Below, piece after piece: positions 1,430 through 21,784 of a DNA stretch of 21,784 nt. The notes beneath the pieces were generated by a model. The model ran no database searches. It worked only from the letters and a program-made list of their open reading frames with translations, and was not told where the DNA came from. A program made the position numbers and the translations under genes. This DNA comes from a virus (taxonomy: Duplodnaviria; Heunggongvirae; Uroviricota; Caudoviricetes): the IMG/VR virus record IMGVR_UViG_2541047936_000004; one strand, written 5' to 3'. The number at the start of each line of letters is the position of its first letter. Position 1 is the first letter of the stretch.

Positions 1430-1485
1430 TGGGCTTCATATAAATATGCTCGATATGCTATTAATAATATCCACATAAATAAAAC

Positions 1486-1508
1486 AACGGGCGTGTTATA
1501 CGCCCGTT
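1486..1508. terminator. Rho-independent terminator between convergent icd 3' end and iraM
   Basis: Perfect 8-bp stem AACGGGCG/CGCCCGTT with a 7-nt loop; T-rich run on the minus strand immediately after the hairpin (plus-strand aaataaaa at 1478-1485), 24 nt downstream of the icd stop. Confidence 0.6.
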
Positions 1509-1531
1509 TCAATATTTAACACATGGAGAGA

Positions 1532-1696
1532 TTACATGTTTTCGATGATCGCTTCACCAAACTCTGAACATTTCAGCAGCTTAGCGCCTTCCATCAGACG
1601 TTCGAAGTCATAAGTTACGGTCTTGGCATTGATTGCGCCTTCCATACCTTTAACAATCAGGTCAGCCGCTTCAGTCCAACCCATATGGCGCAGCAG
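1532..1696 (-). pseudogene. icdC: Displaced 3' end of isocitrate dehydrogenase (icdC-like attachment-site scar), last ~53 codons plus stop
   Basis: Minus-strand translation [53 protein letters not shown] matches the Icd C-terminus as I recall it; the match ends abruptly upstream (HGFYIL does not match Icd), and there is no start codon or 5' part. Confidence 0.85.
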
Positions 1697-2396: not shown

Positions 2397-3518
2397 TTAG
2401 TCATCAACCGCGACTCCTGCACAATCATGGGCTATTGCCAGCAATTGTTTTTTAATTGCTTTAGCATCTACCGTCATATCTACTGTAGCAAAATGGATCT
2501 TATGTCCCTGAGTGACAACATACTCATTAAGCATATAGCCAACAGCTGGATGAAGTAGAAGACCAGCGGCATTGAGCGAAAGCGGATCCGTCTTGTTCTC
2601 CTGTGTTCTAAGGTAGGTATATAGCTGATAAATATAGCCATTACGTAGTGATTGCTCCCGATGCCAACCCTTTGTCAGAATCGAATTAAATTTGGTATCG
2701 ATAATAATACGCCGCTGGGCAGTCTTGTGTTCCAGAATAATGTCTGACTTCATTGTCGGGAAAATCTCTGCACTACCTGCACTTTGATCGCTCAACGCCC
2801 ATTTCAGCTCTTTCCCTGCAGAGACCTGCCAAGTTGTTTTGGCAAGGTGTACACGATATAAGCCAGCGATACCTTTTTCAAATAGTCTTCTCATCCAGTA
2901 AAGGTTATTTGAGGGCGCAGGTAAAAGATATTGGCCTTGATCTTCGGTCGGCATCAGCAGTTCAAAAGCTAATCGTGCGGCATCGACCATCGGTTTATCT
3001 GCGGCATCATGGCGTCCAAAACGCCACACTGAGGGTAATTCGCGGGGGGCAGGATATCCTCCATTTATCCCCTCACGGCGAAGTGATATTGCCATAAAAT
3101 GGCAATCTGCCGCCAAAGACGGTTTCACTATGATTGAGGCCAGACGTTCTAACGCACAGCGAACATAGCGATTTCGGGGGGTGTTGAGGGTTATGTCTTG
3201 AAAATGGCAGGCAACCTGTCCCCGTTCCAGCAGTTGATGACTGGCAGTATACAGTATGTCAATGCGCCCTCTCACCCGGTTCAGGGCCGCATGACAAGTT
3301 TGGTATCCCATATTTAAATTGCGACGTCGGCGCAGCGTAATCTCATGAAGGAGGATTGTCGCCACCAGGTCGGGGATTTCTGCTGGGTTATCTTCTACTG
3401 CGATCTGATTGCGCCCTAACTGGCGAAACAGATCTGAAGCGTACAGCATCAGCATCCAGATATTTCGCATGGGAATACGTGATGCTGTATGTTGCTCACT
3501 CCCGGTTATTGTCGTCAT
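2397..3518 (-). CDS. mcrC: McrC-family nuclease subunit of a McrBC-type (Type IV) restriction system
   Basis: 373-aa ORF colinear with K-12 McrC: MRNIWMLMLYAS vs VRNIYYMLTYA near the N-terminus, RIIIDTKF vs ILIVDAKYY (PD-D/ExK-type core), YIYQLYTYL vs LYQLMNYL, GLLLHPAV vs GLLIYPHV. Its ATG overlaps the mcrB stop (ATGA). Confidence 0.85.
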   Translation of the reverse strand: MTTITGSEQHTASRIPMRNIWMLMLYASDLFRQLGRNQIAVEDNPAEIPDLVATILLHEITLRRRRNLNMGYQTCHAALNRVRGRIDILYTASHQLLERGQVACHFQDITLNTPRNRYVRCALERLASIIVKPSLAADCHFMAISLRREGINGGYPAPRELPSVWRFGRHDAADKPMVDAARLAFELLMPTEDQGQYLLPAPSNNLYWMRRLFEKGIAGLYRVHLAKTTWQVSAGKELKWALSDQSAGSAEIFPTMKSDIILEHKTAQRRIIIDTKFNSILTKGWHREQSLRNGYIYQLYTYLRTQENKTDPLSLNAAGLLLHPAVGYMLNEYVVTQGHKIHFATVDMTVDAKAIKKQLLAIAHDCAGVAVDD

Positions 3519-5497
3519 TTTGCTAATAACACTTTTCTGGCTTCATCGACTTTATTTGGAGCATCGAACCAATATTCGGCGAGCAAAGGGCAGATCTCTG
3601 TATCAACGACTTGTTCATACCAAGCCTGGGCATCGTTGATTTTTTGGCCGATAGCTGGGGTGACATAGCTGTGACCGATACAAAACTGTGGTCCTAAGGT
3701 AACATCTTTTGCCAGCATATCGTTTAATACCGTCAGTCGAGATTTGATGAATGCTAACATGTCAAAATCAATTGCGTAATTATAATTTACCCAGTTTCTC
3801 CACGCGTCATTAAAAGCTGGCTTTAGATCGATAAACGCGAAACGACGGCGCAGCGCTAGGTCAAGTAGTGCGAGTGAGCGGTCTGCAATATTCATCGTAC
3901 CGATGATATATAGATTCTCAGGAATGTATATTTTTTCATCAGCATTTTTAGGATAGGAAAGAGATAATGCCTCAGTCGGCGTGCGTTTATCTGCTTCCAT
4001 CAACGTGAGTGTTTCACCGAAGATTTGCGCCGGATTGCCACGATTAATCTCTTCAATTATCACCACATATTTCGAGGTAGGATTATTGACTGCAGTTTTG
4101 ATTGCATTTACAAAAGGTCCATCAATTAGCGTCAATTGCCCTTCTTTACCTGGACGCCAGCCTCGAATAAAGTCTTCGTAAGAGAGGTTCGGGTGAAATT
4201 GCACCGCGCTAATACGCTCAGGTGCTTTTTCTCCCATCAAGCAGTACGCCAGACGTCGCGCTAACCAAGTTTTTCCAGTTCCGGGTGGTCCTTGTAATAT
4301 CAGGTTTTTCTTGTCGATCAGGCGCTGAAGTGTGAGTTGGATCTTAGCCTCTTCCAAGAAACAGCCATCCTGCACCAGATGACTGATGTCATAAGGAACG
4401 TGGGTGAGTTTTGGCAACAGCGCACTCTCTTCGACAGTTTCCTCAGTTATCGTCTGGGATTCGTTTTTCTCAAAATTCAGGTATTCATAATTTCCGGACT
4501 CGAGGGACTTTAACTCATCATCATTGCATAGTTTCTGTAGATAAAAGTAGATTGAGCTTGTAACAGTTTTGCTCTCAGGATGCTCTACCTTGAATACGTC
4601 CAAGTAGTTTTCTTCCAACTCCGAAGCAGTGAAATAAGGGCCATTTTTTTTCAGGCATAACGCCTTAATTTTATTCAGTAAAGAGGCTTTCCACGTTCTA
4701 TTTGCCACCTCATCTTTAGACTGGCTAAGATCTGTATTCCACGCTGATAAGGAAAGTTCTGGGAAAGAATGAACCGGATAGTTTGGTTGGGTAAAGACCT
4801 CGTTCAGCGCCCGCATAAGACTCAGGTAACTTTGTCCACTACAGCGACCTTTTGCCCCGTTTTTAATGATCTTAATGTTTAACACTGTCTGAATGTAATA
4901 CTGCGACTGGCTATCTAAAGTGGGGTAGAACCAAGGACGGGTCCAGTACAACCCCATGGTGAGATTCCAACCGACATTCATTACTGTAGAAGCGATGTCA
5001 TATGCGGCAGTGAAGTCTGCAGAGTTAGTATTCTGGTTATCCGCAAAGATCATTGCCTGTGAGAACATTTCCCACAAGCATTCAATGTCATTAGGGTCGC
5101 GTGACTTTTCATAACCAAAGAACCAAGATTTTTGGTTATTCAACAGAGGGATTCCGGCAAAGGAGTCAGGAATCGGTTCGTTCACGCCCAACAAATTCGC
5201 TAGCTTGGCAGCAATAATTTTGCGATTGCTGTCGGTCAAGTTACGATTGAACAAGCCCATAGTAGTAAACGGACAAATGTCTTTTAAGGGAAAGATCTCT
5301 CCCATAATAGATTTGTCCTGCAGATGGGACATTCCTTCCACACCCGAGGCAATTAGATGAATACCTTTGACTAATTCATCTCTACGATTTCGCCAAGTCA
5401 GTAACGCGTTGGCAAAAGCCTCATAAAAACTAGCCCAAGCAAACTTGCCATCATGTTCTGCTGTATCCACGGGAACTCCATTATACTTGTTGAGCAA
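3515..5497 (-). CDS. mcrB: McrB-family GTPase (AAA+) with a long N-terminal region of unknown type
   Basis: 660-aa ORF with a TTG start. Residues ~390-660 align with K-12 McrB: NLILQGPPGTGKTWLARRLAY, VQFHPNLSYEDFIRGWRP, MNIADRSLALLDLALRRRFAFIDL, IGHSY, PLLAEYWFD. The first ~385 residues do not resemble the K-12 McrB N-terminal domain as I recall it. Confidence 0.85.
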   Translation of the reverse strand: MLNKYNGVPVDTAEHDGKFAWASFYEAFANALLTWRNRRDELVKGIHLIASGVEGMSHLQDKSIMGEIFPLKDICPFTTMGLFNRNLTDSNRKIIAAKLANLLGVNEPIPDSFAGIPLLNNQKSWFFGYEKSRDPNDIECLWEMFSQAMIFADNQNTNSADFTAAYDIASTVMNVGWNLTMGLYWTRPWFYPTLDSQSQYYIQTVLNIKIIKNGAKGRCSGQSYLSLMRALNEVFTQPNYPVHSFPELSLSAWNTDLSQSKDEVANRTWKASLLNKIKALCLKKNGPYFTASELEENYLDVFKVEHPESKTVTSSIYFYLQKLCNDDELKSLESGNYEYLNFEKNESQTITEETVEESALLPKLTHVPYDISHLVQDGCFLEEAKIQLTLQRLIDKKNLILQGPPGTGKTWLARRLAYCLMGEKAPERISAVQFHPNLSYEDFIRGWRPGKEGQLTLIDGPFVNAIKTAVNNPTSKYVVIIEEINRGNPAQIFGETLTLMEADKRTPTEALSLSYPKNADEKIYIPENLYIIGTMNIADRSLALLDLALRRRFAFIDLKPAFNDAWRNWVNYNYAIDFDMLAFIKSRLTVLNDMLAKDVTLGPQFCIGHSYVTPAIGQKINDAQAWYEQVVDTEICPLLAEYWFDAPNKVDEARKVLLAK

Positions 5498-9264: not shown

Positions 9265-9282
9265 TTCCCGGATCGCTATACG

Positions 9283-10114
9283 CTATTCCGTTAAAGATAA
9301 TGGGCGGAATAATGATTTGACGGTCAAAGTTATGATCATCGCTGATGGTGACTGTAACCGTCCCGTTTGGTGTTTCCGTATTACCCCACGTACCAGCCTG
9401 TTTCGGGAATGATTTGGATACAGCTTTAACGAAGTCACCTCTGACCTGAGTCGCCTCCAGCATGCCCTTAATCGTACAGTTTTCATTTACCGTGACATTG
9501 TTGAGCGTCCCGGCGTTCGCATTCACACTGCCACTGATATCCGCATTTTTAGCGGTCAGCTTTCCGTCCGGTGTCAGGGAAAATGCCGGTGGATTTCCAC
9601 CGCTGGTAATGGTGGGGGCCGTCAGGCGTTTCAGGAACACGTCGTTCATGAATATCTGATCGCCCTGACCAACAAACATCGGTTTTGTGTTGCCATTCGC
9701 AGGATTAACCATCGCAATCCTGTCCGCCGCCAGCAGCACCTGACTCTGCATGCCGTCAGGGGTGTTCTCAATATCCACGATGGCCTCTTTTTCCGGTACA
9801 TGCTGCACGGCGGTGATGGCATACGTGCCGTCGTCGTTCTCACGGATACTCACGCAGCGGAACAGGCGCTGGCGCAACGTCGGCAGCTTCAGCCCCCATA
9901 CGCTGTATTCAGCAACGCCGTCAGGAACACGGCTCACTTTCACCTTCACGCCGTCGGTGACGGACTGAACCTCCACGCTGACCGGACTCCCCTGCCCGTC
10001 AACCAGGCTTATCAGCGTGGTGCCGGAAGATGGCAGCGTGATTTCACGGTCGAGCGTCAGCGTCCGGGTCTGGCTGTTTACCGCCAGCACGCGCCCGCCG
10101 GTGCGGATACCCAA
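9283..10114 (-). pseudogene. J: Remnant of tail tip/host-specificity protein J (C-terminal portion only)
   Basis: Minus-strand ORF contains lambda J C-terminal blocks ([102 protein letters not shown]). About 850 N-terminal codons are absent; the 3' end runs out of frame into stf. Confidence 0.7.
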
Positions 10115-10332: not shown

Positions 10333-10880
10333 GCTTCACCTCCGCAGAGATCAAACGCTGGATGCAAAATATCGCAGGTGCATTTCTGCATCTGTGAATG
10401 GAGAAGAGAGGTTGGATTGTATGTGCGCATAAACGTCCCCGTTTAGCGCAGAAGTCACCGGAGTTGTTCAGGCCCCAATGGCATGATTATGGCTGGTTGA
10501 TTATTGGAAATCAAATGTGCTGAAAATTAGTCTGCCAAGTCTTCCTCAGTCGCAACTGGGTAATTCCAAATATCAAAAAAAGCTATAGCCTCCTGCCATT
10601 TGCTCCATAAGTTATCAAGTACTTGTGTAGGTTCCGTACTTTTAAAAACAGAATCAGCCGCATCACCGTTATGAACTTCCTCGTACAGTTCCATTATTAG
10701 CAGATTAACAAAGTACTGTTTCAACATTAATGCCTGATTACCTTCTTTCTGCTGGCTATCCTGCTTGATGATCTCCATCGCCCGTACTAGGCACCTGATG
10801 ATATCCGCTGCATCATTAACGCTCCATGAACCGCCCCGGGAATCCTGGAGACTAAACTTCCTGAGAAAGAGGTAAACAGG

Positions 10881-11207
10881 ATGACTAAAAATACTCGTTT
10901 TTCCCCCGAAGTCCGTCAACGGGCAGTCCGTATGGTTCTGGAAAGTCAGGATGAATATGACTCACAGTGGGCGGCAATTTGTTCCATTGCCCCAAAGATT
11001 GGCTGTACGCCGGAGACTCTGCGTGTCTGGGTTCGCCAGCATGAGCGGGATACCGGGGGCGGTGATGGTGGGCTCACCAGCGCTGAACGTCAGCGTCTGA
11101 AAGAGCTGGAACGTGAAAATCGTGAACTGCGCCGCAGTAACGATATCCTTCGCCAGGCTTCCGCTTATTTTGCGAAGGCGGAGTTCGACCGCCTCTGGAA
11201 AAAATGA
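10881..11207 (+). CDS. IS629 OrfA (helix-turn-helix transposase N-terminal part)
   Basis: 108-aa ORF inside the IS; ends in an A-rich slippery region overlapping the orfB start. Confidence 0.85.
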
Positions 11208-12094
11208 TGCCACTGCTGGATAAGCTGCGTGAGCAGTACGGGGTCGGACCGGTATGCAGCGAACTGCATATTGCCCCGTCAACGTATTACCATTGTCAGC
11301 AACAGCGACATCATCCGGATAAACGCAGTGCCCGTGCGCAGCACGATGACTGGCTGAAGAGAGAGATACAGCGCGTATACGATGAAAATCATCAGGTGTA
11401 CGGTGTGCGTAAAGTCTGGCGTCAGTTGTTACGGGAAGGAATCAGGGTGGCCAGATGTACAGTGGCGCGCCTCATGGCGGTTATGGGACTTGCCGGTGTT
11501 CTCCGGGGTAAAAAGGTCCGTACGACCATCAGCCGGAAAGCCGTTGCCGCAGGCGACCGCGTAAACCGTCAGTTCGTGGCAGAACGACCTGACCAGCTGT
11601 GGGTGGCTGATTTTACTTACGTCAGCACATGGCGGGGCTTCGTCTATGTGGCGTTCATCATTGATGTGTTTGCCGGATACATCGTGGGGTGGCGGGTCTC
11701 ATCGTCCATGGAAACGACATTCGTGCTGGATGCACTGGAGCAGGCGTTATGGGCCCGTCGACCGTCCGGCACGGTCCATCACAGTGATAAAGGTTCTCAG
11801 TATGTATCGCTGGCCTACACACAGCGGCTTAAGGAAGCCGGATTACTGGCATCAACAGGAAGTACAGGCGACTCGTATGACAACGCGATGGCGGAGAGCA
11901 TCAATGGTCTTTACAAAGCGGAGGTAATACACCGTAAGAGCTGGAAAAACCGTGCAGAAGTGGAACTGGCCACACTCACGTGGGTGGACTGGTATAACAA
12001 TCGACGATTGCTGGAAAGGCTGGGCCATACTCCTCCGGCAGAAGCAGAAAAAGCTTATTATGCTTCCATCGGAAACGATGATCTGGCAGCCTGA
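11204..12094 (+). CDS. IS629 OrfB (DDE transposase catalytic part)
   Basis: 296-aa ORF in the -1 frame relative to orfA with an integrase-core-like sequence (HSDKGSQY...DNAMAES); identical copy at 19058-19948 on the minus strand. Confidence 0.85.
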
Positions 12095-12523
12095 GTTCAC
12101 AGATAAAACACTCTCCAGGAAACCCGGGGCGGTTCACCATTCAGATCCGCGCTTATCTTTAGCTGATGAATTGGCTCTCTCAGCGCAAGCCTTTAAAGAC
12201 TCATAAAGGTAAACTCTATTTTGTAGCTGCAGCGCTTTTTTTGACGTGTACCAACTTGCAAGCGCCGACCCCGCTGCGGCTAATGTGCCAAACGCAGAAA
12301 TACCTGCTGCTATTGCACTTAAGTCGGCACTGTCAAAGTTCCACATCATCGTTACACCTTATATAAATACCCCTCAGTAATATCCAATAAGGTATGTGCA
12401 CAATCAATATAATTTTATCCGTATCGGCACATAGCGATTTGAACGCTACTGGTAATGGTATATTTTAGATTATATCGTCCAGTTTACAGCACCCGTATTT
12501 TATGAAATGGACTCGCATATTAC

Positions 12524-12607: not shown

Positions 12608-12907
12608 TTATGGTAACACTCGACTCCACTTATCATCCAGCCACGGCTGGAATTTTACATGTGCCGTTTCTCTGGCGAGGATTGCTCGCGCTCTGTTGAG
12701 TATCTGGGGATATTCTTGCTCGATAGAAGTAAAGCGGCCGGCTTCGCGGTGCTCCGCAACCTGAAGTAGTGGAGTAACGTTCTGGCAGGCAGTTAACATC
12801 ACATCACCTGCTCGCCATAACCAAGCACGTGCACAAAGTTTGTTATCAGTGAATTGTTTTGTGATTGGGTATTGTTGAACTGCTAGAACGAGAACGCCAG
12901 CATCCAT
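12608..12907 (-). CDS. Hypothetical 99-aa protein
   Basis: ORF between the recombinase gene and the IS-split gene, with a plausible AGGGA ribosome-binding site; no family recognised. Confidence 0.35.
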   Translation of the reverse strand: MDAGVLVLAVQQYPITKQFTDNKLCARAWLWRAGDVMLTACQNVTPLLQVAEHREAGRFTSIEQEYPQILNRARAILARETAHVKFQPWLDDKWSRVLP

Positions 12908-13018: not shown

Positions 13019-14545
13019 TCAAAAATAAACCTCACCATCAACCATATATTTGAGAGTACTTATCGCCTGCTGGGCGGATATTGTTTTCATTAAAGGATAG
13101 TGTTTAAAAACAATGCCATTCATAAAATAGATATCACAGGTTTTATTATCTGTATTGATTATGATTTTTTCGAATGTTTTATAGGCAAGTGTACGACATA
13201 GCTCTCGCCCATTTTTACTGGTTAAGTCAATAGCATGAAAATCACCAAGTGAACTCACCGCTTTACTCTTCAAAGTTTTTAATGATACAGAAGCCCTTCG
13301 TAATTCCTTATCTAATACTCTGATTTTTTCTGCTATAGCGGTAACTTCAGGCGCAACAGATAATGCAGCAATTAAATTATTAATTTTCATCTGGAGCTCA
13401 ATAATTTTCAACTCTAAAGTTTCATTAGCATCTTTCTTGTTTTCAACTGGTTGGATTTTACTACAATTAAAAAGCAACTCATTAATGATATTATAATCAA
13501 CCAAATCTCTCTTTATTGATGGCCTGTCACATCGATGCAGTCTTCTCATCGGACAAACATAATAGCCATGCAAACTTCCAGATACCGCATGAACAATCAT
13601 GGTATTACCACAAGCCTCGCACTTCATAACTGTTCGAAGTAGATTTATCAACATAGGATTTTTGCTACTATTGCTAATACCAAAAGGTGCCAACCGAATT
13701 TCCTGCACAGCGTAAAACAAATCATCTGATATGACTCTGGGATAATAGCCAGCGATTTCACTTATTCCTTTACCTCTTGCACGATATGAAGGTACGCATA
13801 TACCTATCAGAGCTTTATTCGCTAATAATTTTTCAATTACAGAAGGTCCCCATGCACTTTCTTTTCCTGAGAAATTCTTTACAGCATGATCATTTAAATA
13901 CTTGGCTATTGCATTCAATGAGCGCCTTTCCATCCTGAGTTTAAAAATTAGCTCAATAGTTTTCACCCTGTCGGGGTCTGGAACAAAAGCCGTTCTTTTG
14001 TCATCCAATGAGAGCCATCTCGGACAAGACGCCGTCATAATCGTGCCTGACTCCAGTGCATCCTGCCGTTTTTTCTTCCATGATAATTTAACCCGACTTG
14101 ACTTTATCTCGCTTTCTTCATTTGCCCTTTGTGCTATAAGTATGGCTTTTATTAATGAATATGGCTCATTCAATGAGTCAATATTATAGACTGTATTATC
14201 GCAAAGAGTTATAACATCAATACCGTGATTCAAAATCAATTTCAGACGCTCAATCGCCTCACCGACTTTTTCTCTTGAAAGTCTGTCCAGACTTTCAACT
14301 AACAATGTAGTCCCTGGCAATATATAACCATGTTCTATAGCATCTAAAAATTCCGAAAAAGCTCCTGATTGTGCATGCTTTCCATTGAATGCGCTTAACC
14401 CCAAATCTTCATACGTTACGGTATCAAGGTAATAATCACTATTTACCTTTAGCCATTCAGTAATAAGCCTTCTCTGGCGGTTTAATGAATCACCAGACAT
14501 CTGACTTGGTGATGAAAATCGCATATATGCTATGGCTTTTTTCAT
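13019..14545 (-). CDS. ybcK: Large serine recombinase (YbcK-like)
   Basis: 508-aa ORF with an N-terminal resolvase-type motif (AIAYMRFSSPSQ, catalytic Ser context), a long recombinase domain and a Cys-rich segment (CEACGN...YYVCPMRRLHRC). It lies directly downstream of emrE, as ybcK does in K-12 DLP12, and has the same length as I recall for YbcK. Confidence 0.75.
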   Translation of the reverse strand: MKKAIAYMRFSSPSQMSGDSLNRQRRLITEWLKVNSDYYLDTVTYEDLGLSAFNGKHAQSGAFSEFLDAIEHGYILPGTTLLVESLDRLSREKVGEAIERLKLILNHGIDVITLCDNTVYNIDSLNEPYSLIKAILIAQRANEESEIKSSRVKLSWKKKRQDALESGTIMTASCPRWLSLDDKRTAFVPDPDRVKTIELIFKLRMERRSLNAIAKYLNDHAVKNFSGKESAWGPSVIEKLLANKALIGICVPSYRARGKGISEIAGYYPRVISDDLFYAVQEIRLAPFGISNSSKNPMLINLLRTVMKCEACGNTMIVHAVSGSLHGYYVCPMRRLHRCDRPSIKRDLVDYNIINELLFNCSKIQPVENKKDANETLELKIIELQMKINNLIAALSVAPEVTAIAEKIRVLDKELRRASVSLKTLKSKAVSSLGDFHAIDLTSKNGRELCRTLAYKTFEKIIINTDNKTCDIYFMNGIVFKHYPLMKTISAQQAISTLKYMVDGEVYF

Positions 14546-14800: not shown

Positions 14801-15133
14801 TTAATGTGGTGTGCTTCGTGACAATAAATTAATAACCAACACACCGGCACAAATCAACATCATGCCTATAATGGCTGGCAGGTCCAACCGTTGGCCGAAA
14901 AATCCCCATGATAGTAAGCTAATCAGGACAATACCGACTCCTGACCAGATAGCATAAGCAATCCCTGTAGGAATATAAGCCAGCGTCTGAGCTAATAACC
15001 AGAATGATGCACAATAACAAATAATTGTACCAACAGATGGCCATAACCGTGTAAAACCTTCTGAAAACTTCATTAAGGTTGTACCAATGACCTCTGCAAG
15101 TATTGCACCACCAAGATAAATATAAGGATTCAT
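14801..15133 (-). CDS. emrE: Small multidrug resistance efflux transporter EmrE
   Basis: 110-aa protein MNPYIYLGGAILAEVIGTTLMKFSEGF...LSRSTPH matches EmrE as I recall it. The track ORF extends 18 codons further upstream; I trimmed to the canonical ATG, which has an AGGA upstream. Confidence 0.9.
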   Translation of the reverse strand: MNPYIYLGGAILAEVIGTTLMKFSEGFTRLWPSVGTIICYCASFWLLAQTLAYIPTGIAYAIWSGVGIVLISLLSWGFFGQRLDLPAIIGMMLICAGVLVINLLSRSTPH

Positions 15134-15200: not shown

Positions 15201-15503
15201 TCATTGTGTACCCATTGATGTTCTTTTATATACCCTCAATACCCGTTTCATCGCGGCACTCTGGCGACACTCCTTAAAAATCAAATTCGTGCTCACCTTT
15301 CCTTCCCATTCTTCTCTGGTAGCGAACCGATAATACACCGTTCGCCAGACCTTACCATCAACGACTAGGATTCCTGCCCGCGCCATTTTAGCCGCAGCCT
15401 GATTTATGCTGGTTACCGTTGCGCCTGTTACCGCGGCAACGTCCTGCGCACAGAATTTCTTATGAGTCCCCAGGTAATGAATAATTGACTCTTTGCCCGT
15501 CAT
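15201..15503 (-). CDS. ren: Lambda Ren-like protein
   Basis: MTGKESIIHYLGTHKKFCAQDVAAVTGATVTSINQAAAKMARAGILVVDGKVWRTVYYRFATREE matches lambda Ren closely; overlaps the P stop. Confidence 0.85.
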   Translation of the reverse strand: MTGKESIIHYLGTHKKFCAQDVAAVTGATVTSINQAAAKMARAGILVVDGKVWRTVYYRFATREEWEGKVSTNLIFKECRQSAAMKRVLRVYKRTSMGTQ

Positions 15504-16201
15504 ACCCTTGCTCCTTTCAGCCCAAACTTAGCTTTGATTTCTGCGATCTTCGCCAGAGCCTGTGCACGATTTAGAGGTCTACCGCCCATGACAGGAAGTT
15601 GTTTTACTGGTTCAGGTATAGCCTCACCACGGTTAATTCGTGCGGTCATACAGGACAGTTCATCGGCAGCCTTGCGCCGTAATTCCGCGTCAGTCAACGC
15701 ATTGGCCCGCATGTTCTGATACAGGTTGGTAACCAGCCAGTAGTGCGCGTTTGATTTCCACGGATAAGACTCTGCATCCGGATACAGCCCGCGCTTCCGG
15801 CAATACTCGTAAACCATATCAACCAGCTCGCTGGCGTTTGGCAGCCCGGCGGTAACGGATGCTTCTTCCCGGCACCAGGCGACAAACTGCCCGGGTGATG
15901 GCAGGAATGGTCGATTCTGCCGACGGGCTACGCGCATTCCAGCGTTAACCTGTTCCATTGTGGTGATCCCGTTTTCCCGAAAAGCCAGCACCCACTGGCG
16001 GCGGATTTCGTTCAGTTCATTCTGGTCACGGTTAGCCAGGCTCGCCGGGAAAGTTGCCAGTAACTGGCTGAACACACCGTTGATGATCTGCGCTACCTGC
16101 TGTACCTGTGGCTTTTCGTCGTACTGTTCCGGCATGTTGTTGGCGATCCGACGCATCTGCTCACGGTCAAAGTTAACCATCTGTGCGGCGATGTTTTTCA
16201 T
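15500..16201 (-). CDS. P: Replication protein P (lambda P-like, DnaB loader)
   Basis: 233-aa ORF essentially colinear with lambda P (MKNIAAQMVNFDREQMRRIANNMPEQYDEK...AKFGLKGA), with the same length. Confidence 0.9.
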   Translation of the reverse strand: MKNIAAQMVNFDREQMRRIANNMPEQYDEKPQVQQVAQIINGVFSQLLATFPASLANRDQNELNEIRRQWVLAFRENGITTMEQVNAGMRVARRQNRPFLPSPGQFVAWCREEASVTAGLPNASELVDMVYEYCRKRGLYPDAESYPWKSNAHYWLVTNLYQNMRANALTDAELRRKAADELSCMTARINRGEAIPEPVKQLPVMGGRPLNRAQALAKIAEIKAKFGLKGARV

Positions 16202-16440
16202 AGATCCACCCCGTAAATCCAGTCAGTGTTTGTCAGGTCGAGTTTTGGTTTGCCGACTGTCACGCCAGCCTGTTGCTTGTTCCGGTTGATTTCGAGCTGG
16301 GTCCACTTGTCGCGGAGTTTGGCCGGACTCAGCACGTTACCGGACCAGAAGTTGTCCTGGCAGGCCCAGCGGAACAGTACACACATGTCGCGGTGGTTAC
16401 GTCCATCACGTTCACGCATCAGACGGATATCGTTACCGGG
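16198..16440 (-). pseudogene. O: Replication protein O, C-terminal fragment only
   Basis: The minus-strand ORF ends ...[56 protein letters not shown], which is the lambda O C-terminus. The N-terminal origin-binding part is absent; the upstream boundary is the exo junction. Confidence 0.8.
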
Positions 16441-17088
16441 ATCGACGTGAGAGCTGTCGAACAGGGGGATGATGCGTGGCACAAATTACGGCTCGGCGTC
16501 ATCACCGCTTCAGAAGTTCACAACGTGATAGCAAAGCCCCGCTCAGGAAAGAAGTGGCCTGACATGAAAATGTCCTACTTCCACACCCTGCTTGCCGAGG
16601 TTTGCACCGGTGTGGCTCCGGAAGTTAACGCTAAAGCACTGGCCTGGGGAAAACAGTACGAGAACGACGCCAGAACCCTGTTTGAGTTCACTTCCGGCGT
16701 AAATGTTATTGAATCCCCGATCATCTATCGCGACGAAAGTATGCGCACCGCCTGCTCTCCCGATGGTTTATGCAGTGACGGCAATGGCCTTGAACTGAAA
16801 TGCCCGTTTACCTCCCGGGATTTCATGAAGTTCCGGCTCGGTGGTTTCGAGGCCATAAAGTCGGCTTACATGGCCCAGGTGCAGTACAGCATGTGGGTGA
16901 CGCGAAAAGATGCCTGGTACTTTGCCAACTATGACCCGCGTATGAAGCGTGAAGGCCTGCATTATGTCGTGGTTGAGCGGGATGAAAAGTACATGGCGAA
17001 TTTTGACGAGATGGTGCCGGAGTTCATCGAAAAAATGGACGAGGCACTGGCTGAAATTGGTTTTGTATTTGGGGAGCAATGGCGATGA
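16430..17088 (+). pseudogene. exo: Lambda exonuclease (Exo/RedA), lacking its start and first ~10 codons
   Basis: [56 protein letters not shown]...[14 protein letters not shown] is colinear with lambda Exo from about residue 10 to the end. The apparent N-terminal 55 codons of the track ORF are antisense O sequence. Confidence 0.85.
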
Positions 17089-17243
17089 CGCATCCTCACG
17101 ATAATATCCGGGTAGGCGCGATCACTTTCGTCTACTCCATTACAAAGCGAGGCTGGGTATTTCCCGGCCTTTCTGTTATCAGAAATCCACTGAAAGCACA
17201 GCGGCTGGCTGAGAAGATAAATAACAAACAGGAGGATATATGA
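17085..17243 (+). CDS. Possible 52-codon small ORF translationally coupled between exo and the DGQHR gene
   Basis: Its ATG overlaps the exo stop (ATGA), its TGA overlaps the DGQHR ATG (ATGA), there are no internal stops, and GGGGAG lies 8 nt upstream. Product [52 protein letters not shown]. Below the track's length threshold. Confidence 0.3.
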
Positions 17244-18304
17244 GTCAGGTTGGTAATCATTCATTCGAATTTCCGGCATCGCAAGGTGTACAGGGTGGTA
17301 CTGTTACACTCTTCCTTACCATACCAGGAAGATCGCTGGCTCGTTTCCTCGCTTCAGATAATTACGGCCATACACTGGAACGCTCTCAGCGAGAAATTAA
17401 TCCAAATCGAGTACGAAAATTTTTAAATTATCTCACTAACGCAGACTCAAGAAATGAGCCTTTTATCATTCCCCCTCTCGTAGGTAACTGTGATTCGAAT
17501 ATAGAATTTGTACCGTTTGGCAACACAAATGTTGGTATAGCCAGAATTCCCCTCGACGCCGAAATAAAACTTTTTGATGGTCAACATCGTGCAGCTGGCA
17601 TTGAGATATTTTGCCGAAGTTCCCCATCAACGCTCATGGTTCCCATGATGCTTACAATGAATCTGCCGCTAAAAACCCGGCAGCAGTTCTTTTCGGACAT
17701 AAATAACAACGTTTCTAAGCCATCAGCGACCATCAATATGGCGTATAACGGCCGGGATGATATTGCTCAGGGAATGATATCCTTCCTGACCCAACATACT
17801 GTATTTGCCGATATAACCGATTTTGAACACAACGTAGTGCCATTAAAAAGTAATATGTGGGTGAGTTTCAAGGCACTCACTGATGCAACGTCAAAGTTCG
17901 CTAGGAACGGCAATCAACAACTTGAAATGGGATATATAGAATCTGTCTGGGAGGCATGGATTACACTAACTCAGATTGACTCAATCCGACATGGTGTACA
18001 CCACGCTACGTACAAGCGCGATTATATTCAGTTCCATGGAGTAATGATTAACGCTTTCGGTTTTGCGGTTCAACAGATGATGGTTAATCATTCCATCGCA
18101 GAAATAACTTCTATGATCGAAAAACTATGTGCAACTACCAGCTCTGCAGAAAGAGAGGATTTTTTTCTGATGGATAACTGGGCGGGGATCTGCACGAAAG
18201 CCAGCCAGGAAAAACTATCTGTTATTGCCAATGTGGCAGCGCAGAAAGCAGCAGCAAACAGACTGATACAAGCTTTTACCAAAGGAAGTCTGGAAACAAC
18301 TTAA
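17240..18304 (+). CDS. DGQHR-domain protein (DndB-like), solitary
   Basis: 354-aa ORF with a strong ribosome-binding site (CAGGAGGA-N5-ATG). It contains the exact motif FDGQHRAAGIE at residues ~112-122 and a downstream QQFFSDINNN block, consistent with the DGQHR/DndB family as I recall it. No dndACDE-like genes are nearby. Confidence 0.7.
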   Translation: MSQVGNHSFEFPASQGVQGGTVTLFLTIPGRSLARFLASDNYGHTLERSQREINPNRVRKFLNYLTNADSRNEPFIIPPLVGNCDSNIEFVPFGNTNVGIARIPLDAEIKLFDGQHRAAGIEIFCRSSPSTLMVPMMLTMNLPLKTRQQFFSDINNNVSKPSATINMAYNGRDDIAQGMISFLTQHTVFADITDFEHNVVPLKSNMWVSFKALTDATSKFARNGNQQLEMGYIESVWEAWITLTQIDSIRHGVHHATYKRDYIQFHGVMINAFGFAVQQMMVNHSIAEITSMIEKLCATTSSAEREDFFLMDNWAGICTKASQEKLSVIANVAAQKAAANRLIQAFTKGSLETT

Positions 18305-18457: not shown

Positions 18458-18676
18458 ATGGCAGACATCATTGATTCAGCATCAGAAATTGAAGAATTAC
18501 AGCGCAACACAGCAATAAAAATGCGCCGCCTGAACCACCAGGCTATATCTGCCACTCATTGTTGTGAGTGTGGCGATCCGATAGATGAACGAAGACGCCT
18601 GGCCGTTCAGGGTTGTCGGACTTGTGCAAGTTGCCAGGAGGAGATCGAACTTAAGAACAAACAATGGGGACTGTGA
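18458..18676 (+). CDS. TraR/DksA-family C4 zinc-finger protein
   Basis: 72-aa ORF with CxxC-N17-CxxC (CCECGDPIDERRRLAVQGCRTCASC), typical of phage and plasmid TraR-like proteins. Confidence 0.65.
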   Translation: MADIIDSASEIEELQRNTAIKMRRLNHQAISATHCCECGDPIDERRRLAVQGCRTCASCQEEIELKNKQWGL

Positions 18677-18723
18677 TGGCTTCAAAGCAGCAAATTTCAA
18701 CATCGTCCAACTGAGGTGTAAAA

Positions 18724-18963
18724 ATGTTCAGAATCATTTTTCCTAACACCTGGTACGTCGACCACCACGGCACTCCCTGCAAAATCCTGCGTTCTACCCA
18801 CAACAAAGTTCACTACATCCGAAAAGGCAGAACATGTATCGCCAGCATGTTCCGCTTTAATCATGACTTTGAACCTGTGAATAAAGCTGATGCAGATCGG
18901 ATAGCAGAAGAGATCGAAACGGCAGAACACATTAAGAAGTTACGTGCCATACGCAGGAAATAG
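18724..18963 (+). CDS. Hypothetical 79-aa protein
   Basis: ORF in the same orientation as the early-left operon, ending 52 bp before IS629 copy 2; no family recognised. Confidence 0.35.
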   Translation: MFRIIFPNTWYVDHHGTPCKILRSTHNKVHYIRKGRTCIASMFRFNHDFEPVNKADADRIAEEIETAEHIKKLRAIRRK

Positions 18964-19057
18964 AAAAATTGATAAATTCAATACTGCATTACTCAGCATT
19001 AAATTTATCTCTATGTGAACCGCCCCGGGTTTCCTGGAGAGTGTTTTATCTGTGAAC

Positions 19058-19948
19058 TCAGGCTGCCAGATCATCGTTTCCGATGGAAGCATAATAAGCT
19101 TTTTCTGCTTCTGCCGGAGGAGTATGGCCCAGCCTTTCCAGCAATCGTCGATTGTTATACCAGTCCACCCACGTGAGTGTGGCCAGTTCCACTTCTGCAC
19201 GGTTTTTCCAGCTCTTACGGTGTATTACCTCCGCTTTGTAAAGACCATTGATGCTCTCCGCCATCGCGTTGTCATACGAGTCGCCTGTACTTCCTGTTGA
19301 TGCCAGTAATCCGGCTTCCTTAAGCCGCTGTGTGTAGGCCAGCGATACATACTGAGAACCTTTATCACTGTGATGGACCGTGCCGGACGGTCGACGGGCC
19401 CATAACGCCTGCTCCAGTGCATCCAGCACGAATGTCGTTTCCATGGACGATGAGACCCGCCACCCCACGATGTATCCGGCAAACACATCAATGATGAACG
19501 CCACATAGACGAAGCCCCGCCATGTGCTGACGTAAGTAAAATCAGCCACCCACAGCTGGTCAGGTCGTTCTGCCACGAACTGACGGTTTACGCGGTCGCC
19601 TGCGGCAACGGCTTTCCGGCTGATGGTCGTACGGACCTTTTTACCCCGGAGAACACCGGCAAGTCCCATAACCGCCATGAGGCGCGCCACTGTACATCTG
19701 GCCACCCTGATTCCTTCCCGTAACAACTGACGCCAGACTTTACGCACACCGTACACCTGATGATTTTCATCGTATACGCGCTGTATCTCTCTCTTCAGCC
19801 AGTCATCGTGCTGCGCACGGGCACTGCGTTTATCCGGATGATGTCGCTGTTGCTGACAATGGTAATACGTTGACGGGGCAATATGCAGTTCGCTGCATAC
19901 CGGTCCGACCCCGTACTGCTCACGCAGCTTATCCAGCAGTGGCATCAT
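19058..19948 (-). CDS. IS629 OrfB transposase (copy 2)
   Basis: Protein identical to 11204-12094. Confidence 0.85.
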
Positions 19949-20271
19949 TTTTTCCAGAGGCGGTCGAACTCCGCCTTCGCAAAATAAGCGGAAGCCTGGC
20001 GAAGGATATCGTTACTGCGGCGCAGTTCACGATTTTCACGTTCCAGCTCTTTCAGACGCTGACGTTCAGCGCTGGTGAGCCCACCATCACCGCCCCCGGT
20101 ATCCCGCTCATGCTGGCGAACCCAGACACGCAGAGTCTCCGGCGTACAGCCAATCTTTGGGGCAATGGAACAAATTGCCGCCCACTGTGAGTCATATTCA
20201 TCCTGACTTTCCAGAACCATACGGACTGCCCGTTGACGGACTTCGGGGGAAAAACGAGTATTTTTAGTCAT
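19945..20271 (-). CDS. IS629 OrfA (copy 2)
   Basis: Protein identical to 10881-11207. Confidence 0.85.
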
Positions 20272-20415
20272 CCTGTTTACCTCTTTCTCAGGAAGTTTAG
20301 TCTCCAGGATTCCCGGGGCGGTTCACTGACCAGTCAAGAGATGTACCTGCCATGAGCTTAATATCATGTCAGATATATCGGTCACAAACTCCCTCAGCAG
20401 CTAAGAGGAGGACAA

Positions 20416-20652
20416 ATGTCTCGACTAATCACTTTACAGGACTGGGCTAAAGAAGAATTTGGGGACTTAGCACCAAGTGAGCGAGTTCTGAAAAAATACG
20501 CGCAAGGGAAAATGATGGCCCCACCCGCTATAAAAGTTGGTCGCTACTGGATGATTGACCGAAATTCCCGTTTTGTAGGAACGCTTGCAGAACCGCAACT
20601 CCCAATAAACGCAAACCCAAAACTCCAACGGATAATCGCTGATGGCTGCTAG
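20416..20652 (+). CDS. xis: Excisionase (Xis-like)
   Basis: 78-aa ORF immediately upstream of and overlapping int, with a strong ribosome-binding site (AAGAGGAGGA); the LITLQDW...PPAIKVGRYW pattern resembles the lambda Xis family (LTLQEW...PPPVKDGREY). Confidence 0.7.
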   Translation: MSRLITLQDWAKEEFGDLAPSERVLKKYAQGKMMAPPAIKVGRYWMIDRNSRFVGTLAEPQLPINANPKLQRIIADGC

Positions 20653-21784
20653 ACCCCGATCTCACAAAATCTCTATACCCAATTTATATTGCAAATTAGA
20701 TAAGCGAACCGGAAAGGTATATTGGCAATACAAACATCCACTATCCGGTCGTTTTCATAGCTTAGGAACTGATGAGAATGAAGCAAAACAAGTTGCTACT
20801 GAAGCAAATACCATTATTGCTGAACAACGTGCCAGACAAATATTAAGCGTCAATGAGCGTCTGGAAAGAATGAAAGGCAGGCGCTCAGACATTACGGTGA
20901 CAGAATGGCTTGATAAATATATTTCTATCCAGGAGGACAGGCTGCAACATAATGAACTAAGACCCAACTCCTATCGGCAAAAAGGCAAACCCATTCGTCT
21001 TTTCCGTGAGCATTGTGGAATGCAACACCTCAAGGATATTACCGCACTTGATATTGCCGAAATAATTGATGCTGTAAAGGCTGAAGGTCATAACAGGATG
21101 GCGCAAGTCGTGAGAATGGTGTTGATCGACGTCTTCAAAGAAGCACAACACGCAGGACATGTTCCGCCAGGATTTAACCCTGCGCAGGCAACAAAACAAC
21201 CGCGAAATCGAGTAAACCGCCAAAGATTGTCACTGCTCGAATGGCAGGCAATATTTGAAAGCGTAAGCAGACGGCAGCCCTATTTAAAATGCGGCATGCT
21301 ACTTGCTCTTGTTACTGGACAACGTTTAGGCGATATCTGCAATTTGAAATTCTCTGATATATGGGACGACATGTTGCACATTACTCAGGAAAAAACCGGT
21401 TCAAAACTTGCTATTCCGCTTAACCTGAAATGCGATGCTCTGAATATTACCCTTCGTGAAGTTATATCTCAGTGCAGGGATGCTGTTGTTAGTAAATATC
21501 TGGTCCATTACCGTCACACTACCTCTCAAGCAAACAGAGGAGACCAGGTTTCTGCAAATACTCTGACAACGGCTTTTAAAAAGGCCCGGGAAAAATGTGG
21601 CATAAAATGGGAGCAAGGAACTGCGCCCACATTTCATGAGCAGCGATCTCTCTCAGAACGGTTATATCGGGAACAGGGTCTGGATACGCAAAAGTTGTTA
21701 GGCCATAAATCCAGAAAAATGACCGACCGATACAATGATGATCGTGGTAAAGACTGGATTATCGTAGATATCAAAACAGCATAG
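20642..21784 (+). CDS. int: Tyrosine integrase, lambda Int family
   Basis: 380-aa ORF colinear with lambda Int: RPRSH..PNLY near the N-terminus, LALVTGQRLGDICNLKFSDI vs LAVVTGQRVGDLCEMKWSDI, PTFHEQRSLSERLY vs PTFHELRSLSARLY, LLGHKS...RYNDDRG vs LLGHKS...QYRDDRG (catalytic Tyr context). The stop is the last codon of the window. Confidence 0.9.
   Translation: MAARPRSHKISIPNLYCKLDKRTGKVYWQYKHPLSGRFHSLGTDENEAKQVATEANTIIAEQRARQILSVNERLERMKGRRSDITVTEWLDKYISIQEDRLQHNELRPNSYRQKGKPIRLFREHCGMQHLKDITALDIAEIIDAVKAEGHNRMAQVVRMVLIDVFKEAQHAGHVPPGFNPAQATKQPRNRVNRQRLSLLEWQAIFESVSRRQPYLKCGMLLALVTGQRLGDICNLKFSDIWDDMLHITQEKTGSKLAIPLNLKCDALNITLREVISQCRDAVVSKYLVHYRHTTSQANRGDQVSANTLTTAFKKAREKCGIKWEQGTAPTFHEQRSLSERLYREQGLDTQKLLGHKSRKMTDRYNDDRGKDWIIVDIKTA

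What the first reader, a model, noticed from the sequence alone, without database searches (positions are those of the whole stretch)
16425..16445. Head-to-head fusion of 5'-truncated exo and an O remnant: the whole immunity and early-control region is deleted
Exo homology begins at about lambda residue 10 on the plus strand, exactly where minus-strand O C-terminal homology ends; the shared segment ggatatcgttaccggg reads as exo DIVTG on one strand and O PGNDIR on the other. In lambda, bet, gam, kil, cIII, N, rexAB, cI, cro, cII and the O N-terminus lie between these points. The prophage therefore has no repressor or antiterminator and P has no functional O partner; it resembles the DLP12 remnant arrangement but is located at icd.
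Basis: partly seen in the sequence, partly recalled or inferred. Interest (0 to 1): 0.4.

Follow-up and report, generated by a model that had tools for sequence, protein, structure and literature searches.

The report
Deletion scar in icd prophage remnant
A dead lambda-like virus lodged in the E. coli icd gene has lost its whole control and replication-start region through one clean deletion, which is ordinary prophage decay, but this and every related deletion I checked broke at the same short DNA motif (TA, usually TACC), which is not explained.

Summary
On the minus strand, homology to lambda-type replication gene O ends at window 16435. On the plus strand, homology to exonuclease gene exo starts at 16434. 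O keeps residues 222-299 and exo keeps residues 10-226. The missing stretch is 7.35 kb in lambda and 5.78 kb in the intact relative phage PhiR47_2. It holds bet, gam, kil, cIII, N, pL, the repressor, pR, cro, cII, the O DNA-binding half and the origin iterons.

The element carries phage 21 int/xis and sits in icd. The junction occurs in 23 of 5,426 complete E. coli genomes, always next to int and icd, and in none of 50,697 phage records. An apparently intact prophage with the same arms sits at icd in strain EC38. K-12 DLP12 has an analogous but wider junction between its exo and P remnants. In itself this is routine prophage decay.

The unexpected part: all nine related deletion junctions that I did not select by motif cross over at TA. 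Most have TACC in a parent sequence, and the same sites recur with different partners. Chance predicts TA in 6-14% of junctions. The mechanism is unknown.

The parts
16434..16435 (.). Deletion junction D1: the 2-bp TA shared by the O parent and the exo parent
16198..16435 (-). O' remnant: C-terminal 78 codons (lambda O residues 222-299) plus stop. The DNA-binding half and the ori iterons are missing
   Evidence: annotated as an incomplete replication protein in NCTC9100
16434..17088 (+). exo' : lambda exonuclease residues 10-226 plus stop, about 97% identical to lambda Exo, YqaJ domain intact. The frame stays open upstream into antisense O (ORF 16273-17088)
15500..16201 (-). Replication gene P, full length, left without a functional O or origin
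15201..15503 (-). ren
14801..15133 (-). emrE (SMR efflux pump), phage cargo also present in DLP12 and in phages Turner and PhiR47_2
13019..14545 (-). ybcK, large serine recombinase
17085..17243 (+). DUF1317 gene (lambda orf60a homologue). It contains 'site-9' (TA at 17113-17114), which serves as a deletion end in RM10410, XJ34 and K-12 DLP12
17240..18304 (+). DndB-like DGQHR gene, an insertion relative to lambda and PhiR47_2
18458..18963 (+). TraR/DksA zinc-finger gene and DUF4222 gene of the pL-distal arm
19016..20326 (-). IS629-like insertion (1.31 kb) between DUF4222 and xis, absent from NCTC9100
20416..21784 (+). xis and int of phage 21 type (99.5% identical to phage 21); icd follows beyond the window end
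10108..10111 (.). Second deletion junction D2 (TACC): tail-tip J remnant joined to the N-terminal half of ybcN. It removes Q, lysis, cos, head and most tail genes
10828..12136 (+). Second IS629-like insertion, absent from NCTC9100
2397..5497 (-). McrBC-like cargo (McrC plus AAA ATPase) next to the left attachment end
1479..1695 (-). Displaced icd 3' fragment marking the left end of the prophage (92.6% identical to the functional icd 3' end)

Best explanation
The site is the scar of one illegitimate (non-homologous) deletion inside a phage-21-type lambdoid prophage integrated in icd.

The ancestor resembled phage PhiR47_2, with the order int21-xis-...-exo-bet-gam-kil-...-cI-cro-cII-O-P-ren-emrE-ybcK. 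A break-and-join between exo codon 9/10 and O codon 221/222, sharing only the dinucleotide TA, removed about 5.8 kb (7.35 kb in lambda coordinates).

A single step took out both early promoters and operators, the repressor, N, cro, cII, kil, bet, gam, the DNA-binding half of O and the replication origin. The result is a prophage that cannot be induced, cannot replicate from its own origin and cannot kill the host from pL or pR. Such a prophage can be kept indefinitely.

A second deletion (J to ybcN, junction at 10108-10111) removed the late genes. Two IS629-like insertions came later.

Shown: the junction, its parents, its distribution, the gene content lost, and the absence of an IS at the junction.

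Inferred: that it was a single event; that the loss 'grounds' the prophage; and that int/xis, P, exo' and the O fragment are now mostly unexpressed passengers, while cargo (emrE, the McrBC-like genes, the DndB-like gene) may be what is retained by selection.
For: - Junction position and 2-bp overlap.
- Collinear flanks with lambda, Turner and PhiR47_2.
- Content of the lambda interval, including ori iterons at 39034-39118, which lie inside the deleted span.
- Intact relatives with the two points 5.8-5.9 kb apart: PhiR47_2 and the EC38 prophage at icd with the same int arm and the same McrBC cargo.
- A sister remnant at icd (NCTC9087) keeps full exo-bet-gam, so the exo 5' end was present in the lineage.
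- 23 of 5,426 genomes carry the junction, all contiguous with int21 and icd.
- No phage record spans it.
- No IS sequence at the junction, and the nearby IS629 copies have unrelated target duplications.
- No repressor or antiterminator domains in the window.
- No sigma-70-like promoter facing exo' near the junction.
Against: A single-step origin is not proven. bet and exo share GCGT(T)ACCG 455 bp apart. A first deletion from O into bet (5-bp overlap CGTTA) followed by bet-exo slippage would give the same sequence. However, that intermediate was not found in 5,426 genomes.

Loss of function of the remaining genes is inferred from missing promoters, not measured. PGAP annotates exo' as an intact CDS.

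The exact size and content of what was lost is unknown, because the ancestor's immunity region is not preserved.
Confidence: 0.9

Rival explanations
1. The junction is not a random illegitimate event. It is the product of a sequence-selective cleavage-and-rejoining activity that acts at TA, preferably TACC, and repeatedly uses the same sites in lambdoid prophage DNA. One candidate is strand transfer by a type IA topoisomerase. The gene-content consequences are the same as in the best explanation, which this refines rather than replaces.
For: Nine junctions that I did not select through the motif all have TA in the overlap:
- window D1: O|exo, TA
- window D2: J|ybcN, TACC
- window J-internal: TATCC, probable only
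- FORC064: tail fibre|P, TACC
- NCTC9087: tfa|gam-upstream, CTA
- RM10410: O|DUF1317 site, TA
- K-12 DLP12: P|exo, TA then CC
- K-12 DLP12: DUF1317 site|xis side, GGGTA|CCTC
- XJ34: DUF1317 site|intD, TA

A simulation on the intact EC38 prophage gives P(TA in the overlap) = 0.06 for overlaps of 2 bp or more and 0.14 for 4 bp or more. TACC is not over-represented in these sequences.

Sites are re-used with different partners:
- exo codon 9/10 with O, with ybcN (XJ34), with a 19-nt bet stub (L013, L018) and with an unrelated AT-rich partner (L016)
- ybcN nt 222-225 with J, exo and bet
- the DUF1317 site with three partners

IMG/VR searches anchored at two other exo positions found no junctions.

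E. coli Topo I cleaves in vivo at a TA dinucleotide 4 nt downstream of a conserved C, motif TCNTTA (PMC9352719). The O site reads TCGTT|A.
Against: The sample is small and comes from a few related prophage families, and some events may be nested rather than independent.

Only 7 of 16 native sites have C at -4. The CC after TA is not part of the reported Topo I motif, which is AT-rich.

No enzyme was tested. The gyrase position matrix could not be retrieved.

I found no paper describing such a rule. That may mean it is new, or that my sample misleads.
Confidence: 0.4
2. Two-step origin: a first deletion joined O (..ATCGTTA) to the TTACC site inside bet through the 5-bp overlap CGTTA. Replication slippage between the near-repeats GCGTTACCG (bet) and GCGTACCG (exo), 455 bp apart, then removed the bet stub and exo codons 1-9.
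For: The bet-to-exo deletion at exactly these repeats exists in IMG/VR contigs L013 and L018, where a 19-nt bet stub precedes exo codon 10. MLI110 has ybcN joined to the same bet site. XJ34 has ybcN joined to the exo site. These look like the before and after of such a slip.
Against: No complete E. coli genome carries the predicted O|bet intermediate. The final sequence cannot distinguish one step from two.
Confidence: 0.15
3. IS-mediated deletion: the IS629-like elements in the window, or an earlier IS, caused the loss through an adjacent deletion or through recombination between IS copies.
For: Two IS629-like copies lie in the element. In K-12 DLP12 an IS3 sits in renD near the analogous junction.
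Against: No IS sequence lies at or next to the junction. NCTC9100 and 20 other genomes carry the junction without the IS copy between DUF4222 and xis; only Z1323HEC0011 and RM10410 show an IS in the junction-to-icd stretch, so those insertions are later. The IS629 target duplications are unrelated to the junction sequence.
Confidence: 0.02
4. The truncated genes were retained because they are useful. For example, Exo lacking nine residues could act as a nuclease together with the adjacent DndB-like protein, or the O C-terminal fragment could bind and neutralise P.
For: The exo' frame is open, carries all of the YqaJ domain and is called intact by PGAP in most carriers. Three different junctions at this exo site (window, XJ34, L016) each leave an in-frame upstream start. 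The O C-terminal region is the part known from lambda genetics to contact P (my own knowledge, not tested here).
Against: RM10410 has deleted exo' entirely from the same element, and FORC064-type genomes have deleted most of P. No promoter-like site faces exo', and its partner bet is gone. The DGQHR gene is frameshifted in one carrier.
Confidence: 0.08

Closest known systems
DLP12 cryptic prophage of E. coli K-12 (exoD'/peaD' junction, argU site)
   Same: It has the same kind of head-to-head fusion of a 5'-truncated exo with a 5'-truncated replication gene, with the immunity region gone. The same ren-emrE-ybcK module follows, 95.8% identical. The crossover is also TA followed by CC.
   Different: The breakpoints differ and the deletion is wider: P instead of O on one side, and exo nt ~400 instead of codon 10 on the other (window equivalents 15811 | 16809). 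It has a different integrase and site (intD, argU). DLP12 keeps Q and the lysis genes, which this element has lost.
Phage 21 and its relatives PhiR47_2, ev207 and Lambda_2E9 (viable icd-integrating lambdoid phages)
   Same: int/xis are 99.3-99.7% identical. PhiR47_2 also carries exo, O, P, ren, emrE and ybcK in the same order and at 96-97% identity.
   Different: These are complete phages, with 5.8 kb of recombination, immunity and replication-control genes between the two points that are fused here. They lack the DndB-like gene.
Apparently intact prophage at icd in E. coli EC38 and NDM1
   Same: Same site, same int-to-exo arm including the DndB-like gene, and same tail-fibre and McrBC-like cargo end (EC38); the NDM1 stretch examined shows the int-to-exo arm but does not reach the cargo end.
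   Different: The immunity and replication module is different (an O-like and P pair without emrE-ybcK), and the full late region is present. It is therefore a relative, not the direct ancestor.
e14 element (the classical occupant of icd in K-12)
   Same: Same chromosomal attachment gene. It is also a defective lambdoid remnant.
   Different: Different gene content. In this window the element has a phage 21 integrase, emrE-ybcK and McrBC-like cargo, and no e14 hallmark genes (lit, pin, mcrA) are annotated.
Short-homology illegitimate recombination and prophage 'grounding' as reviewed for E. coli cryptic prophages (PMC6379469)
   Same: A deletion with a 2-bp overlap and no IS, leading to an immobile remnant that keeps cargo genes.
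   Different: The literature I could search does not describe a TA/TACC bias or re-use of fixed sites.

Membership tests
Lambdoid (lambda-like) prophage early region | Lambda-type exo, O and P genes in lambda order and orientation | tested here: met
   exo' has a YqaJ domain and is about 97% identical to solved lambda Exo. P matches Phage_lambda_P. O/P/ren DNA is 94-98% identical to lambda, 434 and Turner.
Phage 21 integration group (icd) | Phage 21-type int/xis adjacent to icd, with a displaced icd 3' fragment at the other end | tested here: met
   99.5% identity to phage 21 int/xis. icd adjoins int, and an icd fragment marks the left end, in NCTC9100, FORC064 and Z1323CEC0014. The window holds the icd' copy at 1479-1695.
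Defective (cryptic) prophage | Lack of repressor, antiterminators, replication origin, lysis and head genes | tested here: met
   Pfam scans of all sizeable ORFs found none. The ori iterons lie inside the deleted lambda interval. The annotation of the identical locus lists no such genes. ORFs under about 90 aa were not all scanned.
DLP12 | Integration at argU with intD | tested here: not met
   No tRNA in the window. The integrase is phage 21 type and the site is icd. Only the ren-emrE-ybcK and ybcN pieces are DLP12-like.
DLP12 | The same exo/replication-gene junction as K-12 | tested here: not met
   The K-12 junction maps to window equivalents 15811 | 16809, not 16434/16435.
Microhomology-type illegitimate deletion | Flanks collinear with an intact relative, overlap of a few bp, no mobile-element sequence at the joint | tested here: met
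Microhomology-type illegitimate deletion | Breakpoints and overlap sequence unbiased, as expected if the process has no sequence preference | tested here: not met
   9 of 9 unselected junctions contain TA against 6-14% expected, and sites are re-used.
Topoisomerase I-mediated strand transfer (candidate mechanism only) | Cleavage at T|A with C at -4 (TCNTTA) at both partners | tested here: inconclusive
   TA is present at all sites. C(-4) is present at 7 of 16 native sites, and the O site is a perfect TCGTTA. The downstream CC is not part of the published motif (PMC9352719; site list).
IS-mediated adjacent deletion | IS end at the junction | tested here: not met

The most novel reading that the evidence does not exclude
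Decay of lambdoid prophages in E. coli may not proceed by random microhomology deletions. It may proceed through a sequence-selective break-and-join process centred on TA, most often TACC, that re-uses a small set of hot sites. These include exo codon 9/10, ybcN nt 222-225, a site in bet, a site in the orf60a/DUF1317 gene and others. Old junctions remain hot. The O'/exo' junction in this window would be one product of that process. A type IA topoisomerase, whose in vivo cleavage dinucleotide in E. coli is TA, or another unidentified host or prophage enzyme would be the agent.
Probability: 0.4. Interest if true: 0.7.

Novelty: new member of a known kind. Interest (0 to 1): 0.35.

Why it matters
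This parallels the classical DLP12 remnant. It is useful for annotation, since the O fragment and exo' are remnants rather than a novel gene pair, but it is not surprising.

What could matter more is the pattern that emerged when the junction was compared with its relatives. Every prophage-decay deletion examined crossed over at TA, usually next to CC, and the same sites were used repeatedly with different partners in prophages at three different chromosomal sites. If that holds in a proper census, it points to a specific enzyme behind prophage domestication and illegitimate recombination in E. coli. The question becomes directly testable with deletion-selection assays in topoisomerase or recombinase mutants.

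Tried and rejected
- **Natural adjacency of O and exo:** rejected. No phage record spans the junction, and intact relatives keep the two points 5.8 kb apart.
- **Assembly artefact:** rejected. The junction is in 23 complete genomes plus IMG/VR and metagenome contigs.
- **IS-mediated origin:** rejected.
- **DLP12 identity:** rejected, because the site, integrase and breakpoints all differ.
- **Two-step O-to-bet intermediate:** searched with a synthetic chimeric query and not found. The companion query for a bet|exo slip junction was uninformative, because the tool joins the two native pieces.
- **GTDB representative genomes, scanned for non-native flanks at the exo site:** nothing found.
- **Metagenome scan:** only one more copy of the same junction.
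- **Gyrase hypothesis:** could not be scored, because the published position matrix is cut from the stored supplement.
- **Literature searches** for a described TA/TACC deletion rule or a YbcK function: nothing relevant.
- **Target motifs considered from memory and set aside** because the site sequences do not fit: IS608 TTAC, IS5 YTAR, IS10 GCTNAGC, integron GTT, hix/gix invertase sites, lambda Int core, Cre lox, RusA 5'-CC, and common restriction sites. None of these was tested computationally.
- **Promoter scan near the junction:** nothing facing exo'.

Full report
**1. What is at 16425-16445**

Window 15201-16482 carries, on the minus strand, ren (15201-15503), P (15500-16201) and an ORF ending in the C-terminus of lambda O. 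On the plus strand an ORF runs from 16273 to 17088, and its last 217 codons are lambda exonuclease.

BLAST against 50,697 phage records places O/P homology at window 15500-16435 (95-98% identity). Exo homology runs from 16434 onward (98.7%).

A base-by-base comparison with lambda, phage Turner and the NCTC9087 prophage shows the following:
- The O parent reads ...GGATATCGTTA|GCCCACC.
- The exo parent reads ...CTGCAGCGTA|CCGGGATC.
- The window reads ...GGATATCGTTACCGGGATC.

The two parents share only TA (16434-16435).

In lambda coordinates the exo side keeps positions up to 32002 and the O side keeps positions from 39348. Exo keeps residues 10-226, confirmed against solved structures. O keeps residues 222-299.

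**2. What was lost**

The lambda interval 32003-39349 (7,347 bp) contains bet, gam, kil, cIII, ea10, ral, sieB, N, nutL, oL/pL, rexB, rexA, cI, oR/pR, cro, nutR, cII, the N-terminal 221 codons of O and the four ori iterons at 39034-39118.

In phage PhiR47_2 the two points are 5,783 bp apart. This is a viable phage with the order int21-xis-...-exo-bet-gam-kil-gevAT-cI-cro-cII-O-P-ren-emrE-ybcK, and it matches the window on both sides of the junction at 96-99.7% identity.

Pfam scans of the sizeable ORFs of the window found no repressor, Cro, N or Q domain. The annotation of the identical locus in NCTC9100 lists none. No sigma-70-like promoter faces exo'.

**3. Where the element is and how common the scar is**

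The int/xis pair is 99.5% identical to that of phage 21. In NCTC9100, FORC064 and Z1323CEC0014 the element lies between a displaced icd 3' fragment and the functional icd gene. The window itself starts in ycgX and ends at the end of int.

The 80-nt junction sequence occurs in 23 of 5,426 complete E. coli genomes. A 5.75-kb query running from P through the junction to icd shows that all 23 have it contiguous with int21 and icd. More than 3,000 other genomes match only one half, breaking at 16434/16435.

About 223 further genomes carry the same exo-to-int arm at icd with an intact exo 5' end:
- EC38 has an apparently complete 48-kb prophage there, with the same tail-fibre/McrBC cargo end; the stretch of NDM1 examined, from capsid genes to icd, looks equally intact.
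- NCTC9087 has a different remnant that still keeps exo-bet-gam.

**4. Relation to DLP12**

K-12 DLP12 has ren-emrE-ybcK at 95.8% identity to the window, and also a head-to-head exo'/P' fusion. Its breakpoints map to window equivalents 15811 (in P) and 16809 (in exo), so its deletion brackets the one seen here.

The two junctions are different events, or the DLP12 one erased an earlier one.

Phages Turner and PhiR47_2 show that emrE-ybcK is ordinary cargo of living phages.

**5. Later history of the element**

- A second deletion joins a J remnant to the N-terminal half of ybcN at 10108-10111. It removes Q, lysis, cos, head and tail genes.
- Two IS629-like copies (10828-12136 and 19016-20326) are absent from NCTC9100. 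Z1323HEC0011 carries an IS3-family insertion in the junction-to-icd stretch and may be the source or a close relative.
- Seven genomes have a further deletion from the tail fibre into P.
- RM10410 has deleted exo' from the junction to the DUF1317 gene.
- In Z1323CEC0014 the junction is unchanged, but 2 kb around it differs at 2.7%. The differences reach to within 12 bp on the O side and 41 bp on the exo side, while the outer flanks are near-identical. This fits allele replacement from other lambdoid prophages on each arm, stopping where homology ends.

**6. Mechanism of the scar**

No IS sequence lies at the joint, the flanks are collinear with intact relatives, and the overlap is 2 bp. This is an illegitimate deletion.

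One alternative is a two-step path: O to the TTACC site in bet through CGTTA, then slippage between GCGTTACCG in bet and GCGTACCG in exo. It is suggested by contigs that carry a 19-nt bet stub before exo codon 10. The predicted intermediate is absent from 5,426 genomes.

Functionally, the deletion removes everything needed for induction, replication and pL/pR-driven killing in one step. That explains why such a remnant is stable. This part is inference.

**7. An unexpected regularity**

A BLAST row for strain XJ34 showed ybcN next to exo. I looked at it and found DLP12 there has ybcN joined to exo at exactly the same exo position as in the window (...CATCTTT[TACC]GGGATC). The ybcN breakpoint is in turn the same TACC at which the window's second deletion starts.

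Following this up produced the events below.

Junctions I did not select through the motif:

| Event | Overlap or joint |
|---|---|
| window O\|exo | TA |
| window J\|ybcN | TACC |
| window J-internal (left parent only 85% similar, so probable) | TATCC |
| FORC064 tail fibre\|P | TACC |
| NCTC9087 tfa\|gam-upstream | CTA, left parent CCTACCGG |
| RM10410 O\|DUF1317 site | TA |
| K-12 P\|exo | CTCG[TA]CCTCC |
| K-12 DUF1317 site\|xis side | GGG[TA]CCTCAC |
| XJ34 DUF1317 site\|intD | TA, TACC on the other strand |

Junctions found through searches anchored at these sites:

| Event | Overlap or joint |
|---|---|
| XJ34 ybcN\|exo | TACC |
| MLI110 ybcN\|bet (prophage at the lambda site) | TTACC |
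| L013/L018 bet stub\|exo | TACC |
| L016 unrelated AT-rich DNA\|exo | |

A simulation of random deletion joints on the intact EC38 prophage gives TA in the overlap in 5.7% of joints with 2 bp or more, and in 14% with 4 bp or more. Nine of nine is far outside that. TACC is not over-represented in these sequences.

In IMG/VR, an anchor at the exo codon-10 site returned three junction types. Anchors at two other exo positions returned none, and the DLP12 exo site returned only the K-12 type.

Truncated ybcN is rare: 44 of 2,956 records. Even so, the ybcN junctions I examined (window D2, XJ34, MLI110) all break at nt 222-225, and a 39-nt ybcN fragment in strain Z226-6 starts at nt 223.

**8. What might cause it**

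I could not identify the agent. E. coli topoisomerase I is reported to cleave in vivo at a TA dinucleotide 4 nt downstream of a conserved C, with core motif TCNTTA (PMC9352719). The O site (TCGTT|A) fits exactly, and 7 of 16 native sites have C at -4. The CC that usually follows TA is not part of that motif, so this remains only a candidate.

The gyrase matrix could not be retrieved. From memory, the sites do not match any transposase, invertase, integron or integrase target that I know. The events occurred in prophages with three different integrases (argU, lambda att and icd), which argues for a host factor or a shared phage factor.

The sample is small and drawn from related elements, and some events may be nested. 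I rate the reality of a sequence-selective process at about 0.4.

**9. Verdict**

The object is an ordinary, previously undescribed member of a well-known kind: a cryptic lambdoid prophage disarmed by deletion of its immunity/early region, analogous to DLP12. Taken alone it deserves low interest. The TA/TACC regularity and site re-use seen across its relatives are unexplained, and they are the reason for a moderate overall score.

Noticed in passing
window 10108-10111 (also L017, L021): Second deletion junction. A J (tail tip) remnant is joined to the N-terminal half of ybcN through a 4-bp TACC overlap. The same ybcN position (K-12 ybcN nt 222-225) is a breakpoint in XJ34 (joined to exo) and in MLI110 (joined to bet), where the other half of ybcN is kept.
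   Followed up: yes
window 16434-35, 10108-11, ~9757-9772, 17113-14; L005 2573 and 2877/8; L008 9001-04; L002 18814; L010 ~6002 and ~6680; L012 ~5050; L024 12886-87: All nine unselected prophage deletion junctions examined cross over at TA, usually TACC on one strand, and several sites are re-used with different partners. Chance expectation for TA is 6-14%. The mechanism is unknown; Topo I (TA cleavage, TCNTTA motif) is a weak candidate.
   Followed up: partly
window 10828-12136 and 19016-20326: Two IS629-like insertions (1.31 kb, ends TGAACCGCCCCGGG..., ORFs of 108 and 296 aa) that are absent from the otherwise identical NCTC9100 locus. The first interrupts a 510-nt hypothetical gene. The second lies between DUF4222 and xis.
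   Followed up: partly
L007 (Z1323CEC0014), window equivalents 15250-17250: The same junction is flanked by a 2-kb patch that differs at 2.7%, reaching to 12 bp (O side) and 41 bp (exo side) from the joint, while the outer flanks are near-identical. This suggests separate allele replacements on each arm from other lambdoid prophages, each ending where homology ends.
   Followed up: partly
L024 (RM10410) 12886-12887; L008 (FORC064) 9001-9004: Further decay of the same element. RM10410 deleted exo' from the old junction TA to a TA in the DUF1317 gene, and its int is broken by ISVsa5 and an IS3-family element. Seven genomes deleted from the tail fibre (window 6543) into P (window 16103) through TACC.
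   Followed up: yes
window 17240-18304 and 2397-5497: Two cargo modules. The first is a DndB-like DGQHR gene inserted between the orf60a homologue and the TraR-like gene; it is absent from lambda and PhiR47_2, present in the EC38/NDM1 icd prophages, and frameshifted in Z1323CEC0014. The second is a McrBC-like pair (McrC plus a 660-aa AAA ATPase) at the attL end. Both may be defence genes that explain why the remnant is retained.
   Followed up: partly
window 16273-17088 and 16198-16482: Both truncated genes remain inside open frames that read through the junction into antisense sequence of the other gene (271-aa and 94-aa ORFs). PGAP annotates exo' as an intact 219-aa protein starting at a non-canonical ATC at 16429. 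XJ34 and IMG/VR contig L016 give exo different new N-termini at the same codon-10 boundary.
   Followed up: partly
L003 (phage Turner), L006 (phage PhiR47_2): Viable lambdoid phages carry ren-emrE-ylcJ-ybcK just as DLP12 does. The K-12 'host' multidrug pump gene emrE is therefore circulating phage cargo.
   Followed up: no
window 9255-9465 and 6618-8207: The tail-fibre/J region is mosaic relative to EC38. Identity drops to 85-89%, lom and about 1.6 kb are missing, and an unmatched 210-nt stretch begins ...GCATCGGT|TATTACCAC. The 949-aa tail-fibre ORF here is split differently in NCTC9100, which differs by a few indels.
   Followed up: no
strain Z226-6 (NZ_CP159641.1 781984-782022): An isolated 39-nt fragment of ybcN that starts exactly at the TACC breakpoint (nt 223-261). 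This would be another use of the same site. I did not inspect it.
   Followed up: no
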